Assembly: GCA_035257065.1 (NCBI GenBank) | Contig: DATEXK010000205.1 | Span: forward strand, 1-28,059 | Origin: Gaiellaceae bacterium | GTDB lineage: Bacteria > Actinomycetota > Thermoleophilia > Gaiellales > Gaiellaceae | Direction of reading: 5' to 3' | DNA length: 28,059 bases | Shown here: piece by piece, positions 8,790 through 18,089 of the stretch | Position numbering within the stretch: the first letter of the stretch is position 1 | Layout of the letters: each line of letters begins with the position of its first letter | Position numbers and translations under genes: made by a program | Notes under the pieces: generated by a model | Databases searched by the model: none | The model's input: only the letters and a program-made list of their open reading frames with translations | Told to the model about the DNA's origin: nothing

Positions 8790-9986
8790 ATGGTGCGACA
8801 CAACGAGCTACCGAGCTCGACGTCTCGCTCTCTGCGGTCGATGAATCACCTGCTCATAGGCATATCTGTGGGGCTCGGCGCGTGCGTCGTGCTCCTGCTC
8901 GTTCTGCTGGCGACGCTCGTGCGGCGGTCGACGAGGCGTGCCGACGAGCGGGTCACGGACGTCGTTCGCATCCTCGAGACGCGGATGGACGAGCTCGGAC
9001 AGGAGCTTGCAGGCGCGGTCGAGCGCGCCGAGGAGGAGGGCCGGCGCAGCCGGTTCCTCGGCGAGATCGCGGGCACGATCGAGCTCGACGAGGTGCTCGC
9101 GCGAACGCTCGAGGCGGCAACCGGCGCCGTGCCGGAGATCGACGCCTCGGTCGTGCGCCTCGAGAACCCGGACGGCGAGCCCACGGTGGCGGCCCACGGC
9201 CTGTCGGCCGACGGCGCCGAGGCGATCACGGGCCCTCCGGACGGCAGCCGCGCCCGGGCGATCGAGGTCTCGTACCGCTACGCCGACGACGCCGAGGACC
9301 CCGCCCGCCAGATCCACGGCGGGCTCGCGGTGCCGCTCGAGGAGCGCGGCGGCCGGATCGGGTATCTGAGCGTCTTCACGCGCGCCCCCGGTCGGCGCTT
9401 CGACGACGACGACGTGCGGCGGCTCGAGGAGCTCTCGCTCCGCGCGGGCCCGGCGATCGAGAACGCGCGCCGGTTCCGTGAGGCGCGGCAGCTGGCCGAC
9501 CTCGACGGGCTGACCGGCCTCCACAACCGGCGCTACTTCCACGAGACGCTCGCGCGCGAGTGCGGCCGCGCCCACCGCTACTCACGCCGCCTGTCGCTGA
9601 TGGTGTTCGACATCGACGACTTCAAGAACGTGAACGACCGGATCGGCCACCTCGCCGGCGACGCAGTCCTCGCCGAAGCGGCAGGTCGCGCGCGGGAGGT
9701 CGTCCGGAGCGCCGACATCCCATGCCGGGTGGGTGGAGACGAGTTCGCCGTCGTCCTGCCCGAGTCGAGCCTCGAGCAGGCCGACCAGCTGTTCGGCCGG
9801 ATCCAGACCGCGATCTCCGGCCGGCCGATCGGCCAGGCAGGGCGGCTGAAGATCTCCGCCGGCGTCGCCGAGCTCCAGGCCGAGGACGACTCGATCTCCT
9901 TCTTCGAGCGCGCCGACGAGGCGCTCTACCGTGCGAAAGAAGCCGGCAAGGGCCGCTCGATGGCAGCACAGAACCGCTCCGCATAG
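8790..9986 (+). CDS. Membrane-anchored GAF-GGDEF diguanylate cyclase
   Basis: N-terminal hydrophobic helix (LLIGISVGLGACVVLLLVLLATLV), helical linker, GAF-like segment, DGLTGLHNRRYF, DIDDFKNVND, RxxD I-site (RSAD) five residues before GGDEF, ADEALYRAK. Start is 8790 (GGAGG 12 nt upstream) or 8841. Confidence 0.92.
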   Translation: MVRHNELPSSTSRSLRSMNHLLIGISVGLGACVVLLLVLLATLVRRSTRRADERVTDVVRILETRMDELGQELAGAVERAEEEGRRSRFLGEIAGTIELDEVLARTLEAATGAVPEIDASVVRLENPDGEPTVAAHGLSADGAEAITGPPDGSRARAIEVSYRYADDAEDPARQIHGGLAVPLEERGGRIGYLSVFTRAPGRRFDDDDVRRLEELSLRAGPAIENARRFREARQLADLDGLTGLHNRRYFHETLARECGRAHRYSRRLSLMVFDIDDFKNVNDRIGHLAGDAVLAEAAGRAREVVRSADIPCRVGGDEFAVVLPESSLEQADQLFGRIQTAISGRPIGQAGRLKISAGVAELQAEDDSISFFERADEALYRAKEAGKGRSMAAQNRSA

Positions 9987-10103
9987 CATCGCTTCGCTCG
10001 CTTCACGGGGGAAACCATGTTTCCCCCGTGGGGCCCCTTCTTCGCTGCTGTCGGCGAGGCCGCTCACTGCTGCGCGGAACAAGTTCCGCTCCGCGACGAA
10101 AGG
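9986..10103 (+). repeat. REP/MITE-like double-hairpin repeat, copy A
   Basis: Begins at the GGDEF TAG. Hairpin 1 cacgggggaaac-cat-gtttcccccgtg (10004-10030), hairpin 2 gcggaac-aa-gttccgc (10074-10089), ends ccgcgacgaaag. Aligns by eye with copies B and C. Confidence 0.9.
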
Positions 10104-10111
10104 CGGGCGGC

Positions 10112-10144
10112 TCAGCCAAGCCCGAGGAAGCGTAGGTACGACGA
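10112..10144 (-). pseudogene. Orphan relic of the last 10 codons plus TGA of a homolog of the 588-aa gene (SSYLRFLGLG*)
   Basis: Codon-for-codon match to 11518-11550 (TSYLPFLRLG*): 24/33 nt identical, and 4 of the 7 differing codons are synonymous. Same 9-nt spacing to the adjacent repeat. Confidence 0.75.
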
Positions 10145-10166
10145 GAAGAAGCTCCGTGTCGGAGCT
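10141..10166 (-). terminator. Possible intrinsic terminator of the phosphoesterase gene
   Basis: Minus strand AGCTCCG-ACA-CGGAGCT followed by TCTTCTC, about 30 nt after the TAG at 10195. Confidence 0.45.
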
Positions 10167-10194
10167 CCTCCTCGCACGCGCTGTTCGCCGTTCC

Positions 10195-11280
10195 CTATGG
10201 CGCAGGGACGGCGGTGCGGTTGGCCGGGACGATCTGCTGCTGGTACGAGAACACCTCGCGGCTGCCGGGATCGACGAGGACCTTGAGCCAGTTGACGTCG
10301 TTGTCGCCGTTCGCCTGGTTGTCACCGAAGGTCTCGACGCGGGTGAAGTTCTCGAGCCTGCGTCCCTGTGTGTCCAGCAGCGGCTTGTCGATCCGGAAGT
10401 AGTGCGAGTCGCCGTTGACGTAGGCGACCGGCTTCCTGAAAGCGACAGTGTCGTCGCGGAGCGCGCTCAGGAACTGCTGGAACCCGTCGGGCTGCCCGTC
10501 CGTCTCGGCGAGGGTCTTCGCGTCACGGAGCGGCGCGCGGGTGCCGTCGGACCCATCCCACCCCGGATCGGCCTGGCTGATGATCATCACGGCCGCCGAA
10601 TGCCGCGCGGTGGCGATGCTGAACGTCTCGTTGAGCCACGCGATGTCGGCGGCGTTTCGCGCCGCGTATTCCGCCGGATCGGGGGCGGTGTCGCAGAGGT
10701 TGTTGCAGGATCCCTGCACGTTGAGGGTGACGTAGGTGACGCCCTCGACGGTCCAGCGCCTGTTCTCGATGCACGCCGCCGGGCCGCTGACTCCGAGGCA
10801 CGTCGGGGCCGTCTGGACCTCCTGCCGCATTCGATGCTGCCCGAGCGAGAAGGGCGTGCTGAAGAACAGGTGCCGCTCCTTGTCGAGCTGCGCCAGCGAG
10901 TTGTAGCCCGCGGTCCGGTCGCAATCGACCCAGTCGTTGTCGCCGGGCGTGAACATCGCGGGTGCGCGAAGCGAGTTGAAGTAGGACAGCGCCTGCGTGT
11001 ACACGCTGTCGGTGCACTCGCTCGAGCCGCTCTTCAGGTCGCCGTCGTGCGCGGTGAACACGAGGTCCTGCTGGTTCATGTCGGCGATCAGATTCGGCAC
11101 ACCCGTTGTCGCCTGGAGTGTCGAGTACGGCAGGTCTCCCCAGAGCCCGATCGCATAGGTGCTGTTGCCGTGGTCGCCTTCGTCTCCGCCTCTGCCGTTG
11201 AGGCTTGTGCCGGTTGCGATCCCGGCTGTGATCACCGCAGCGAGCAGTGCCCCGATGATGGGCATGACGAGCTTGCGCAT
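10195..11280 (-). CDS. Secreted calcineurin-like metallophosphoesterase family protein
   Basis: Sec-type signal (MRKLVMPIIGALLAAVITAGIATG). Ordered motifs WGDLPY, HDGD, PGDNDW and NGDSH match the D / GDxxD / GNHD / GHxH pattern in variant form. SD GGAGAGGGG. Confidence 0.75.
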   Translation of the reverse strand: MRKLVMPIIGALLAAVITAGIATGTSLNGRGGDEGDHGNSTYAIGLWGDLPYSTLQATTGVPNLIADMNQQDLVFTAHDGDLKSGSSECTDSVYTQALSYFNSLRAPAMFTPGDNDWVDCDRTAGYNSLAQLDKERHLFFSTPFSLGQHRMRQEVQTAPTCLGVSGPAACIENRRWTVEGVTYVTLNVQGSCNNLCDTAPDPAEYAARNAADIAWLNETFSIATARHSAAVMIISQADPGWDGSDGTRAPLRDAKTLAETDGQPDGFQQFLSALRDDTVAFRKPVAYVNGDSHYFRIDKPLLDTQGRRLENFTRVETFGDNQANGDNDVNWLKVLVDPGSREVFSYQQQIVPANRTAVPAP

Positions 11281-11388
11281 TGCTGTCCCCTCTCCGTGAT
11301 TTCCGTGGTCGGTCGGATTCGAGTGCGACGCTAACAGCGCGAAATCGGGGCTTCTACGCGCGTCACCACACCTTCACCGCACCGATTC

Positions 11389-11512
11389 CGCTTCGCTACG
11401 CTCGCTTCACGGGGGAAACCATGTTTCCCCCGTGGGCCCCCTTCTTCCTGCTGCTCACGGCGAGACGTCTCACTGCTGCGCCGAACAAGTTCGGCTCCGC
11501 GACGAAAGAGCC
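11389..11512 (+). repeat. REP/MITE-like double-hairpin repeat, copy B
   Basis: Hairpin 1 (11408-11434) is identical to that of copy A. Hairpin 2 gccgaac-aa-gttcggc. Ends ccgcgacgaaagagc, just past the stop of the 588-aa gene. Confidence 0.9.
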
Positions 11513-11517
11513 GCGAG

Positions 11518-13284
11518 TCAGCCGAGGCGCAGGAACGGGAGATACGACGTGAGGTCGACCGCTGCCGGTTGCGGCAGGTCGTCGCGCGCGCAGATTGCGT
11601 CGTTCAGGGCGGCGCGCTGTTGCGCGACGCTCCACTTCTCGAACGCGGCGCCGCGGGCGAACGAGCGGAGCGCGGCGGCGATTGTCGGCTTTGCCTGGCC
11701 GAGCGGCACCGCGCCGAGCGGAAGTGCATCCGCGAGCGCCTTCACCGTGAACGACCCGTCGCTCGTGCGCACGACAACCGAGCGCCCGGTGGCGACGTCG
11801 AAGAGCGGGCCCGGTGCGACCTCGTCGAGTGCGAGGCCCTTCGGCTTGCCACCGAGCCAGCCAGGCGCCGGCTTCGCCTGCACGAGCCGCACGAGCAGGT
11901 CCGGGTACGAGTCGTAGAAGGTCTTCACCTCGGACGCCGACGGGTTGCCCGCCGCGAGCGTCGCCTCGAGCTTCGCGCGCCGCAACTGGTCGCCGAGGAC
12001 GCCGCGCGCGATGTCGACGCTCGCGTGCGCCTGCTTCAACGCCGTGAGGTACGCGCTACTGCTTCCGTTGAACTCCTGGGCGATGACCGCGCGCTCGGCG
12101 GCGAGCACCGCCTGGCCCGGGACCGGAACCCTCCCGCTCTCGACGAGCCGCTCGTAGAGCGCGCTGTATGCGGTGTCGCGCTCGCCGGTGACGAGCTGGA
12201 GTCGCTGGATGGCGTCGTTCGACAAGAACTTGTCGCCCATGACGCACTGCTCGCCGGACACGAGCGTCGTCAGCTGTCCCGTCGTGCGCGACGGGTCGAA
12301 GTCGGTGCCGATCGCCTTTGGCGCGTTGCACAGCGCCGGCGAGCGAGTCCAGAGCCACGCACACAGCGCGTATGCCTTCGCGGGATCCTGCTCGGCGACG
12401 GTCCACTGCCCCCACCCCCACGACCAGACGGATGCGATGCCCGTCTCCGCCGCGACCTGTTGCGCGGCGAGCGACTGCCACTTCGCGACTTGATACCAGG
12501 CTGAGTCGGGTTGGAGGCCGCTCCTTCCGCCGAAGCCCTTCGTCGAGGCGAAGCTGATCATCAGACCGACGCGGCTGGGCGCGATGCCAATCGAGGTGAA
12601 GTCCTCGACGGCCTGCCGGTACGAGTCGCGCAGGTTGCGATTGCCGAGCACCGGCCCGCTCTTCCAGGTTGCGGTCGCCGGGATGTAGTCCTCCCGGACG
12701 ATCTCCGCAGCCGCGGCCAGCTGCTGCCACCACACGAGCGCGTCGCCGCCCGTGTACGGCCGCGCCGCGATCAGCATCACCGGGTGCGCACCGAGGGCGG
12801 CCAGCTGCTGCACGAACGTGAGCGCGTTCTGGCGGTACTGCGCGTTGTTGTCCGACCACGGAGTGACGAGCCCCGCGCCGGCGAGCTCGTTGAGCACGAT
12901 CACCGGAGTCGCGCAGCCGGTCTGCGCGACCGCGTAGTCGAAGAACGTCTTCGCGCGGGCGGCGAGGAGCGATGGGTCGGCCGGCTTCGTCGTCGTGCCG
13001 ATGCGGTTCGGCAGATTGAGGTCGAAGTAGACGGTCGCGGCACCCGCGGCGCGCATCTGCGCCGGCCATCCGCCGCTCGACGCGCCGACGACGATTCCCG
13101 GCTTGCCGAAAATCGCCTCGTACGCCGGGGTCGGCCAGCCGAACTCGGCATACAGCGGTTGCGTGTCCGGCAGGCCGCACTGGCCTGCGTACGGCGGAAG
13201 CGGTACCGAAGCGCCCCGCGCACCCGAGCCGATCGAGAGCACGGCCCCGCAGAGGACGACGAGTATTGCGAGCTGCTTCTTCAC
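11518..13284 (-). CDS. Secreted 588-aa hypothetical protein; putative GH-like TIM barrel plus PrsA/SurA-like C-terminal region
   Basis: GTG start, signal peptide MKKQLAILVVLCGAVLSIGSGARGA, codon usage typical of the window. Domain calls are motif-level inference only. Confidence 0.8.
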   Translation of the reverse strand: MKKQLAILVVLCGAVLSIGSGARGASVPLPPYAGQCGLPDTQPLYAEFGWPTPAYEAIFGKPGIVVGASSGGWPAQMRAAGAATVYFDLNLPNRIGTTTKPADPSLLAARAKTFFDYAVAQTGCATPVIVLNELAGAGLVTPWSDNNAQYRQNALTFVQQLAALGAHPVMLIAARPYTGGDALVWWQQLAAAAEIVREDYIPATATWKSGPVLGNRNLRDSYRQAVEDFTSIGIAPSRVGLMISFASTKGFGGRSGLQPDSAWYQVAKWQSLAAQQVAAETGIASVWSWGWGQWTVAEQDPAKAYALCAWLWTRSPALCNAPKAIGTDFDPSRTTGQLTTLVSGEQCVMGDKFLSNDAIQRLQLVTGERDTAYSALYERLVESGRVPVPGQAVLAAERAVIAQEFNGSSSAYLTALKQAHASVDIARGVLGDQLRRAKLEATLAAGNPSASEVKTFYDSYPDLLVRLVQAKPAPGWLGGKPKGLALDEVAPGPLFDVATGRSVVVRTSDGSFTVKALADALPLGAVPLGQAKPTIAAALRSFARGAAFEKWSVAQQRAALNDAICARDDLPQPAAVDLTSYLPFLRLG

Positions 13285-13327
13285 GAGACGCTGTACCTGT
13301 GTAGCAAGAAGGCCGGTCGGGCCACGA

Positions 13328-13452
13328 CAGCTCTTCCCGTCGCGGAGCCGAACTTGTTCGGCGCAGCAGTGATTCCGCCTGCCGCGAGCACGAACCCAGA
13401 AGGGGGTTCACGGGGGAAACTGGTTTCCCCCGTGAAGCAAGCGAAGCGATGC
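13328..13452 (-). repeat. REP/MITE-like double-hairpin repeat, copy C (inverted relative to A and B)
   Basis: Reverse complement reads gcatcgcttcgcttgcttcacgggggaaaccagtttcccccgtgaa...cactgctgcgccgaacaagttcggctccgcgacgggaagagc. Confidence 0.9.
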
Positions 13453-13455
13453 GTC

Positions 13456-13508
13456 AGGCCCACGGGGGAAACATGGTTTCCCCCGTGAAGCCCGCGAAGC
13501 GAAGCGAG
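13456..13508 (-). repeat. Partial repeat, copy D (leader plus hairpin 1 only), tandem with C
   Basis: Starts directly after the rpoC TAG: ctcgcttcgcttcgcgggcttcacgggggaaaccatgtttcccccgtgggcc; hairpin at 13461-13487. Confidence 0.88.

Positions 13509-18089
<4,581 letters not shown>

What the first reader, a model, noticed from the sequence alone, without database searches (positions are those of the whole stretch)
9986..13508. Undescribed-looking ~120-bp double-hairpin repeat family at every gene junction between the GGDEF gene and rpoC
Seen in sequence: three full copies (A 9986-10103 +, B 11389-11512 +, C 13328-13452 -) and one partial copy (D 13456-13508 -). They share a (cgcttcg)-type leader, a perfect 12-bp hairpin cacgggggaaac-N2/3-gtttcccccgtg, a variable middle, cactgctgcg, a second hairpin and ccgcgacg. 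None occurs in the ~22 kb of core operon on either side. A and D start right at the TAG of the upstream gene, in sense orientation. Established: REP/BIME/REPIN palindromes cluster in intergenic 3' regions and are moved in trans by HUH tyrosine transposases (RAYT, IS200/IS605-related). Inference: this is a lineage-specific REP/MITE family. I cannot assign it to a named family.
Basis: partly seen in the sequence, partly recalled or inferred. Interest (0 to 1): 0.68.

Follow-up and report, generated by a model that had tools for sequence, protein, structure and literature searches.

The report
Gene-end hairpin repeat family in Gaiellaceae
The four repeats belong to a family of about 60 small two-hairpin DNA elements in an uncultured soil actinobacterium (Gaiellaceae) that sit directly after stop codons and tRNA genes and are gained and lost between sister species: a new, undescribed family of a familiar kind of bacterial repeat, for which I found no transposase.

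Summary
Refined coordinates are A 9987-10098 (+), B 11389-11504 (+), C 13338-13453 (-) and the partial copy D 13457-13508 (-). These are not a local duplication: the 3.23-Mb MAG holds 70 hits at 61 loci, about 53 of them full length.

Each element has a 19-nt leader, an invariant 12-bp hairpin (HP1), a C/T-rich tail, a variable middle, a CACTGCTGCG box, a second hairpin (HP2) and a 9-nt end. HP2 is kept by compensatory changes. There are no inverted ends and no target duplication.

The left end abuts a co-oriented gene end in 31 loci and an opposite one in 2. A stop triplet lies directly 5' of 25 of 56 left ends (background 1.3%). Seven of 43 tRNA genes carry the element.

Sites differ between sister species, so the family moves or moved. 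HP1 plus tail is older. It occurs across Gaiellales, for example right after groEL in seven genomes, and in genomes with no Y1 transposase.

Nothing in Rfam matches. The genome's four RAYT-like genes carry other hairpins, and no TnpB was found.

Best reading: a REP- or IS200/IS605-derived non-autonomous element with directional insertion at gene ends, co-transcribed as a 3'-UTR stem-loop. The mobiliser and the RNA role are inferred. It is a new member of a known kind and of moderate interest.

The parts
9987..10098 (+). Copy A, full element. Leader 9987-10003 (17 nt), HP1 10004-10030, C/T tail 10031-10044, box TCACTGCTGCG 10064-10074, HP2 10074-10089, end TCCGCGACG 10090-10098. It starts directly after the GGDEF gene's TAG (9984-9986).
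10100..10146 (-). Relic copy of the 3' end of the 588-aa gene, 79% identical to 11506-11552. It is not part of the element. It marks the older arrangement GGDEF -> A <- 588-aa gene, before the 361-aa gene was inserted.
11389..11504 (+). Copy B, full element. Leader 11389-11407 (19 nt), HP1 11408-11434, HP2 11480-11495. It is antisense to both neighbouring genes. Its right end lies 13 nt from the TGA of the 588-aa gene (11518-11520, minus strand).
13303..13337 (-). Decayed remnant of the native rpoC terminator (GGAAGAGCTGTCGTGGCCCGACCGGCCTTCTTGCT). The intact form, AAAGAGGGCGGCC..GGCCGCCCTCTTTGCT, is kept in sister genomes that lack the element.
13338..13453 (-). Copy C, full element, sense to rpoC. 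HP1 core 13409-13434 (2-nt loop), with box, HP2 and end within 13338-13372. A TGA triplet (13454-13456) precedes it and joins it to D.
13457..13508 (-). Copy D, left module only (21-nt leader, HP1 13461-13487, GGGCC). It starts directly after the rpoC TAG (13509-13511). The same 'short-junction dimer' of left module, TGA and full copy recurs on contigs C505 and C292.

Best explanation
Two layers fit the evidence.

(1) A 113-120-nt non-autonomous element has spread through this Gaiellaceae lineage by directional insertion at the 3' ends of genes. Its layout is a 19-nt leader (CGCWTCGCTTCGCTCGCTT), the invariant 12-bp hairpin HP1, a GGCCCCCTTCT tail, about 25 variable nt, a CACTGCTGCG box, hairpin HP2 and the end TCCGCGACG. 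Its ends are asymmetric, each with a subterminal hairpin, and there are no inverted ends and no target duplication. Only the left end has a fixed relation to the flank: it lies directly 3' of a stop codon (TRA more often than TAG) or of a tRNA gene, on the sense strand. This is the layout of IS200/IS605-type and REP-type elements, which HUH/Y1 transposases move as single strands. The likely mobiliser acts in trans and was not identified.

(2) The left module (HP1 plus C/T tail) is much older. It is kept in sequence across the order Gaiellales, directly after the stop codons of conserved genes and after tRNAs, often upstream of an ordinary terminator. Once in place the element is co-transcribed as a strong stem-loop at the start of the 3' UTR. 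There it probably protects or defines the mRNA 3' end, or affects terminating ribosomes.

Shown: family size, anatomy, gene-end placement and orientation, compensatory changes in HP2, gain and loss between species, and the absence of a flanking Y1 gene. Inferred: the HUH-type mechanism and the RNA-level role.
For: - Family size: 70 hits at 61 loci, about 53 full length. Sister genomes G041, G042 and G043 each hold dozens of full copies.
- Boundaries: the right end is sharp at ...CTCCGCGACG. The left end is CGCWTCGC, preceded by TGA, TAA or TAG in 25 of 56 left ends against a 1.3% background (binomial p = 4e-32). TAA accounts for 11 of those 25, although it makes up about 11% of the genome's stop codons.
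- Orientation: the left end lies within 25 nt of a co-oriented CDS or tRNA end in 31 loci and of an opposite-strand gene in 2. Distances from the right end to convergent stop codons vary from 2 to 36 nt.
- tRNAs: 7 of 43 tRNA genes have the element starting right after the discriminator base or one to three T's later.
- No target duplication (k = 2-5, permutation p > 0.2).
- Geometry: the leader is 19 nt to the foot of HP1 and the end is 9 nt beyond HP2. In IS608 the corresponding distances are 19 nt and 10 nt, insertion is 3' of a 4-nt target, and there is no gain or loss of DNA (PMC3201880).
- HP2 is kept by compensatory changes: CG 31 / GC 18 and AU 39 / GC 9, with 49/49 and 48/49 copies paired.
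- Gain and loss: the site downstream of rpoC is empty with an intact terminator in G041 and G042, and filled in G000 and G043, where the terminator has decayed. The stop codon sits at the same position in G042 and G043, and one codon later in G041. The site at C110:446-564 is empty in G041 and holds a leader-plus-end relic in G043. Other genus members have ordinary terminators after rpoC.
- Older module: exact HP1 was found in more than 110 stretches. All but one are Gaiellaceae, Gaiellales or Thermoleophilia MAGs, or MAGs labelled only Actinomycetes or Actinomycetota. Where HP1 has a clear tail, a co-oriented gene lies upstream in 40 cases and an opposite-strand gene in 10, and the stop codon is often 0-5 or 19-25 nt from HP1. 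HP1 lies 1-4 nt after the groEL stop in seven genomes, five of which show an ordinary terminator just downstream.
Against: - No cognate transposase was found. The four RAYT-like genes carry other hairpins. TnpB was not detected, nor PF13366, nor a small GIY-YIG gene.
- No full-length parent element sharing these ends was seen.
- G012, G038 and G044 have many HP1 hairpins and no Y1 gene.
- Copies are old: mean pairwise identity is 78% and the maximum is 93%. Nothing shows current activity.
- Copies next to tRNAs lack the TRA flank, so a single short target motif does not explain all sites.
- TGA also occurs at internal junctions of tandem copies, so part of the stop signal may belong to the unit.
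- Orientation relative to replication on G041 contig C8 is 12 of 15 elements against about 60% of genes, which is not clearly stronger.
- HP1 lacks a U-tract and fails the simple terminator scan.
- No usable transcript data were available.
Confidence: 0.5

Rival explanations
1. A host-selected 3'-end RNA motif and not a transposon. HP1 plus tail would be a sequence-specific signal read by a host factor for termination, processing or stability, like the TRIT motif of mycobacteria. The composite would then be an elaborated version spread by recombination or gene conversion between gene ends.
For: HP1 plus tail is kept letter for letter at the same site (after groEL) in seven genomes, while the spacer and downstream sequence differ. 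It occurs in genomes without any Y1 gene. It shows strong sense orientation after genes and tRNAs. The native rpoC terminator decayed where the element is present. TRIT is a precedent: 147 conserved palindromic copies at a narrow distance from stop codons in an actinobacterium (PMC3152330).
Against: About 60 loci after unrelated genes share 113-120 nt, including a 19-nt leader and a 9-nt end, which is hard to obtain without copying a unit. Sites differ between sister species that share about 85% of their DNA. Only the left end is fixed to the flank. There is no U-tract. At groEL an ordinary terminator follows the motif, so the motif is not the terminator there. Copy B is antisense to both neighbouring genes.
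Confidence: 0.22
2. A non-autonomous element moved by a different site-specific enzyme. Candidates are an IS110/IS1111-type recombinase, an IS91-type rolling-circle Y2 enzyme, or an undescribed nuclease that recognises the hairpins.
For: No cognate Y1 gene was found. These families also lack classical inverted ends, often leave no target duplication, and use specific targets (my own knowledge, not tested here). Tandem arrays of left modules only, and half-hairpin duplications, could come from aberrant one-ended events.
Against: No such gene was seen next to any copy. The one ORF bracketed by an inverted pair (C428:3081-3688) has no Pfam match and is present in G041 with only one flanking copy. 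PF13366 is absent and the only GIY-YIG hit is a 447-aa open frame on a contig without the element. IS110 and IS91 families were not searched.
Confidence: 0.13
3. A classical MITE derived from a DDE transposon, or merely a local duplication confined to this window.
For: The length of about 116 nt and the intergenic location are MITE-like. The leader and the right end plus flank show weak complementarity and pair in the fold of copy A.
Against: There is no target duplication and no consistent inverted ends. The two hairpins are unrelated to each other. There are 61 loci genome-wide and dozens more in three sister genomes, so this is not local.
Confidence: 0.03

Closest known systems
IS200/IS605-derived non-autonomous elements (PATEs; IS608 as the reference for end architecture)
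   Same: The left and right ends differ, and each has a subterminal hairpin. There are no inverted ends and no target duplication. Only the left flank carries a conserved short motif. The distances from hairpin foot to element end (19 nt on the left, 9-10 nt on the right) match IS608.
   Different: No parent element with tnpA or tnpB sharing these ends was found. TnpB was not detected in the genome. The flank motif is a stop codon (TRA or TAG) in only 45% of left ends and is absent at tRNA sites. Guide-to-target pairing could not be tested.
REP/BIME/REPIN elements with RAYT transposases
   Same: GC-rich extragenic palindromes in many copies at gene 3' ends, clustered into modular arrays. RAYT-like genes are present in the genome (NF047646, E 1e-15 to 1e-20, below the curated cut-off).
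   Different: The unit is two unrelated hairpins in direct order, not an inverted REP doublet. No RAYT is flanked by these hairpins. The genome's own REP/RAYT pairs use other sequences. HP1 is present in genomes with no Y1 gene.
TRIT (Tuberculosis Rho-independent terminator motif) of Mycobacterium
   Same: An actinobacterial palindromic motif conserved in sequence, present in about 150 copies, at a very narrow distance from stop codons. A binding factor has been proposed (PMC3152330).
   Different: TRIT is a single, mostly bidirectional palindrome that overlaps the end of the coding sequence (around -8) and is restricted to Mycobacterium. This family is directional, starts after the stop codon, carries a second hairpin module, and varies in presence between species. 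No sequence relationship was tested.
[quoted passage not shown]
   Same: Interspersed repeats of about 105 nt whose fold suggests a role at the RNA level at gene ends (review PMC3184786).
   Different: They occur in other phyla and have different sequences. SPRITE resembles a canonical terminator, whereas HP1 has no U-tract.

Membership tests
REP/RAYT (REPtron) | A RAYT (Y1) gene flanked by copies of the same REP hairpin | tested here: not met
   Four RAYT-like genes in G000 and nine in G041-G043 show no hit to the element model within about 1.5 kb at E<=10. Each has a different hairpin beside it.
REP/RAYT (REPtron) | A short extragenic imperfect palindrome in high copy number, often in clusters | tested here: met
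   39 exact HP1 hairpins, 61 loci, tandem left-module arrays.
REPIN | Two copies of the same REP in inverted orientation forming one long hairpin | tested here: not met
   HP1 and HP2 are unrelated sequences in direct order.
IS200/IS605-derived MITE (PATE) | Asymmetric ends with subterminal hairpins, no inverted ends, no target duplication | tested here: met
   Alignment of 53 copies, target-duplication permutation test, end distances of 19 and 9 nt against IS608's 19 and 10 nt.
IS200/IS605-derived MITE (PATE) | A conserved short target immediately 5' of the left end | tested here: inconclusive
   A stop triplet lies at -3..-1 in 25 of 56 left ends (p = 4e-32), with TRA preferred. However, tRNA-adjacent copies have other flanks, and TGA also occurs at internal junctions.
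IS200/IS605-derived MITE (PATE) | A full-length parent IS (tnpA with or without tnpB) with the same ends | tested here: not met
   No TnpB in G000. No left and right ends split by an ORF in G000 or G041. Public metagenomes were not scanned.
Classical MITE (DDE-derived) | Terminal inverted repeats plus target-site duplication | tested here: not met
Canonical intrinsic terminator | A GC-rich stem-loop followed directly by a U-tract | tested here: not met
   The scan finds 0 sites in 9700-13800. The tail reads GGCCCCCUUCUU. Native terminators of this genus do have A/T tracts.
TRIT-like conserved terminator motif | A sequence-conserved palindrome at a narrow distance from stop codons, in sense or bidirectional | tested here: met
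   This is a resemblance in behaviour only; homology to TRIT was not tested.
Any Rfam family | A covariance-model match | tested here: not met
   The best matches are far below gathering scores.
Integron attC | RYYYAAC ... GTTRRRY core sites bounding an imperfect palindrome after a cassette ORF | tested here: not met
   The ends read CGCWTCGC... and ...CTCCGCGACG. No core sites were seen by inspection.

The most novel reading that the evidence does not exclude
HP1 plus its C/T tail is an order-wide, sequence-specific gene-end signal read by a dedicated factor, placed within a few nucleotides of the stop codon or tRNA end. The composite element would then be a mobile unit that finds gene ends themselves (stop codons and tRNA 3' ends, on the sense strand) and not a simple short DNA motif. 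That would make it a gene-end-targeting element class with a built-in 3'-UTR function and a mobiliser of an unknown type.
Probability: 0.15. Interest if true: 0.72.

Novelty: new member of a known kind. Interest (0 to 1): 0.42.

Why it matters
Gaiellales are abundant soil actinobacteria with almost no genetics. This family gives them a defined, countable repeat that marks gene ends, fragments short-read assemblies, and coincides with decay of the native terminator at one site (downstream of rpoC). Two points deserve experiments. First, the left end lands exactly at stop codons and tRNA ends, which gives a clean system for studying how hairpin elements choose targets. Second, the 38-nt hairpin-plus-tail is conserved letter for letter after groEL across species that otherwise differ in that region. 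This suggests a factor-dependent 3'-UTR signal comparable to the unexplained TRIT motif of mycobacteria. If it is only selfish DNA, it remains an ordinary REP/MITE-like family.

Tried and rejected
- Rfam scan of the region: only sub-threshold noise.
- RAYT flanked by the hairpin: none; the RAYT-like genes have their own REPs.
- TnpB (PF07282, PF01385): not detected in G000.
- Other repeat-framed nucleases suggested by earlier scan notes: PF13366 is absent, and the only GIY-YIG hit is a long gene on a contig without the element.
- The ORF bracketed by an inverted pair on C428: no Pfam match, and present in G041 with only one flanking copy.
- Target-site duplication: none.
- Inverted ends: only weak leader-to-end complementarity.
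- The 588-aa gene plus B, C and D as a mobile composite unit: rejected, because that gene follows rpoC in 11 of the 12 relatives whose downstream region I read, none carrying these flanking copies.
- Orientation relative to replication: GC skew on G041 contig C8 is flat. The switch in gene orientation near 750-800 kb matches the switch in element orientation, but 12/15 elements against about 60% of genes is not decisive.
- Transcript evidence: public RNA runs hold only assembled contigs. An RNA contig ends at the foot of D's hairpin, but a contig from run X10 (library type not on record) breaks one base away, so this looks like an assembly break at a repeat.
- Exact empty sites at C110:7286-7443 and C428:3689-3831: the intergenic DNA is too diverged to align.
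- IS608-style guide-to-target pairing: I could not establish the pairing rule from the papers read, so it was not tested.
- Literature: no paper in the library links Gaiella with REP elements.
Full report
**Observation.** Refined coordinates are A 9987-10098 (+), B 11389-11504 (+), C 13338-13453 (-) and D 13457-13508 (-). The hairpin CACGGGGGAAAC-N2/3-GTTTCCCCCGTG is perfect in all four. The N3 pattern scan found three sites against none in 100 shuffles, and C has a 2-nt loop. A starts directly after the TAG of a GAF-GGDEF gene. D starts directly after the TAG of rpoC. The window has no further copy.

**Family size and anatomy.**
- The window is contig C205 of a 3.23-Mb, 569-contig MAG with 68.8% GC, rated 93% complete.
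- A profile built from A, B and C finds 70 hits, about 53 of them full length, grouped into 61 loci. The genome holds 39 exact HP1 hairpins.
- The alignment of 53 copies gives this layout:
  - a leader CGCWTCGCTTCGCTCGCTT, typically 19 nt and essentially CGCTT units;
  - HP1;
  - a tail GGCCCCCTTCT;
  - about 25 variable nt;
  - the box CACTGCTGCG;
  - HP2 (GCSGAA-CAAG-TTCSGC);
  - the end TCCGCGACG.
- A subfamily has an extra mini-hairpin in the leader, with compensatory variants such as cttcgcggcc-tagg-ccgcgaag and ctcttcggcc-tgag-gccgaagag.
- HP2 is maintained by double changes: CG 31 / GC 18 at one pair and AU 39 / GC 9 at another, with 49/49 and 48/49 copies paired. HP1 hardly varies.
- Folds of A, B and C have z-scores of -2.7 to -3.4 on the sense strand.
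- Copies average 78% pairwise identity, with a maximum of 93%. The family is therefore old and shows no sign of a recent burst.
- There is no target duplication and no clear inverted ends.

**Placement.**
- The left end is tied to gene ends. A stop triplet lies immediately 5' of the leader in 25 of 56 left ends, against a background of 1.3% (p = 4e-32).
- TAA accounts for 11 of those 25, although only about 11% of genes end in TAA, and TAG is under-used.
- Counting loci, the left end lies within 25 nt of the end of a co-oriented CDS or tRNA in 31 cases and of an opposite-strand gene in 2. The rest are contig ends or places where my crude gene caller found no neighbour.
- Seven of 43 tRNA genes have the element starting right after the discriminator base or one to three T's later.
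- The right end has no fixed distance to convergent stop codons; distances range from 2 to 36 nt.
- TGA tends to go with CGCAT, and TAA or TAG with CGCTT (Fisher p = 0.009). TGA also sits at the internal junction of five left-module-plus-full dimers, including D and C. Part of the signal may therefore travel with the unit.

**Who has it.**
All but one are Gaiellaceae, Gaiellales or Thermoleophilia MAGs, or MAGs labelled only Actinomycetes or Actinomycetota.
- In most of these only the left module is present: an optional leader, HP1 and the tail nGCCCCCTTCTT.
- Where HP1 has a clear tail, a co-oriented gene lies upstream in 40 cases and an opposite-strand gene in 10. The stop codon is often 0-5 or 19-25 nt from the hairpin.
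- HP1 plus tail lies 1-4 nt after the groEL stop in seven different genomes, unchanged while the spacer and downstream sequence differ. In five of them an ordinary terminator is visible about 20 nt downstream.
- The full two-hairpin composite was found only in G000 and four other MAGs. Three of these are close relatives (G041, G042, G043) with 95-99% identity in the RpoC C-terminus, and each holds dozens of copies.

**Gain and loss.**
- Downstream of rpoC, most genus members read have an ordinary terminator with an A-tract, GC stem and T-tract.
- Among the close relatives, G041 and G042 have an intact terminator and no element at this site. G043 has one composite and G000 has D plus C.
- In both filled genomes the native terminator has decayed to a remnant ending in CTTYTTGCTACACAGG. 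The stop codon is at the same position in G042 and G043, and one codon later in G041.
- The copy at C110:446-564 is absent in G041. In G043 it is represented by TGA, a leader and a few right-end bases. Similar relics of a leader alone, or of a leader plus right-end bases, occur in G019.
- Other copies are shared at the same site: C110:3059-3199 with G042, and C428:2907-3080 with G041.
- The family has therefore been gaining and losing sites since these species split.

**Search for a mobiliser.**
- G000 has four Y1 genes whose best match is the REP-associated tyrosine transposase model (E 1e-15 to 1e-20, below the curated cut-off).
- Each has a different hairpin beside it. GTCYCGGTGCCWGGCACCGRGAC forms a classical REP family of more than 40 copies in arrays and flanks its gene on both sides. 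TTAACGGTGACWGTCACCGTTAA has 8 copies.
- No copy of the present element lies near any Y1 gene in G000 or G041-G043.
- G012, G038 and G044 carry many HP1 hairpins but no Y1 match.
- TnpB, PF13366 and small GIY-YIG genes were not found.

**Interpretation.**
- The asymmetric ends, the absence of inverted ends and target duplication, and a flank motif on the left side only match IS200/IS605-type single-strand elements and their gene-less derivatives. So do the distances of 19 nt (junction to HP1 foot) and 9 nt (HP2 foot to end). In IS608 cleavage is 19 nt 5' of the left hairpin and 10 nt 3' of the right one, and insertion is 3' of TTAC without gain or loss of DNA (PMC3201880).
- A target read on the top strand would explain the sense orientation. 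A TRA motif is rare in a 69% GC genome except at stop codons, and insertions elsewhere would be selected against.
- This remains an inference. There is no cognate enzyme, tRNA sites lack TRA, and the replication-orientation test was inconclusive.
- The order-wide conservation of HP1 plus tail, including in genomes without Y1 genes and upstream of ordinary terminators, argues that this module also has a host-level role in the 3' UTR.
- It is not a canonical terminator. The decay of the rpoC terminator in the two filled genomes suggests the element can substitute for one, but that is a single locus.
- Precedents are TRIT in mycobacteria and SPRITE. From my own memory, and not verified here, REP hairpins within about 15 nt of a stop codon stall ribosomes in E. 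coli (Liang, Rudd and Deutscher 2015).

**Verdict.** This is a real, undescribed, lineage-specific family of a known general kind (REP/PATE/TRIT-like gene-end hairpin repeats). Its placement at gene ends is unusually exact. It has an ancient conserved core, and its mobiliser is unknown.

Noticed in passing
window 10195-11280 (minus strand), with 10100-10146 and 11506-11552: The 361-aa gene between A and B has no Pfam match, so 'phosphoesterase' is unverified. It is absent from this position in all 8 relatives examined. It is bounded by direct repeats made of the element plus about 45 nt of the 3' end of the 588-aa gene. This looks like an insertion by recombination at an element copy.
   Followed up: partly
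window 9984-11520; loci L170-L177: The convergent gap between the GGDEF gene and the 588-aa gene is a variable hot spot. It is 15 nt long in one relative and 390-1625 nt in others, with different small genes and other palindromes.
   Followed up: partly
G000 contigs C34, C152, C158, C201, C95 and others: The same genome has classical REP/RAYT systems. REP4 (GTCYCGGTGCCWGGCACCGRGAC) has more than 40 copies in arrays with a period of about 38 nt and flanks its RAYT-like gene on C34. REP3 (TTAACGGTGACWGTCACCGTTAA) has 8 copies, one of them beside a RAYT-like gene on C95.
   Followed up: partly
G000 C125:4692-4775: A chimeric copy in which a REP3-type hairpin, not HP1, is followed by a middle region and an HP2-type right end. 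This suggests that the right module can be combined with other left hairpins.
   Followed up: no
G000 C381:2489-2560, C257, C362, C135 and others: A further palindromic repeat, about 20 copies of GACATGGCCCGGGGTCTGACCCCGGG-like sequence, often lies just downstream of copies of the present element.
   Followed up: no
L111 (Asticcacaulis sp. YBE204, NZ_AWGF01000013.1, about 69.18 kb): An exact HP1 with the same TGCCCCCTT tail lies 6 nt after a stop codon in an alphaproteobacterium. A second site in that genome has a compensated variant (ATGGGGGAAAC..GTTTCCCCCAT). This could be horizontal spread, convergence or contamination.
   Followed up: partly
HP1 and tail, e.g. window 10004-10044: The tail CCCCCTT mirrors the pyrimidine arm TTTCCCCC and runs parallel to the purine arm GGGGGAA. 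On paper this could allow a pyrimidine-motif triplex. There was too little variation to test covariation, so this remains speculative.
   Followed up: no
G000 contigs C470 and C556: ARAGORN finds two tmRNA genes with slightly different tags (ANQRDLALAA and ANQSDLALAA). This suggests strain mixture or contamination in the MAG.
   Followed up: no
G000 C70:6977-7133 and C110:7409-7443: A duplication of the leader plus the first half of HP1, joined at the hairpin loop to a full copy (GGGGGAAAG|ACGCTT). The same kind of junction is seen in relative L093.
   Followed up: no
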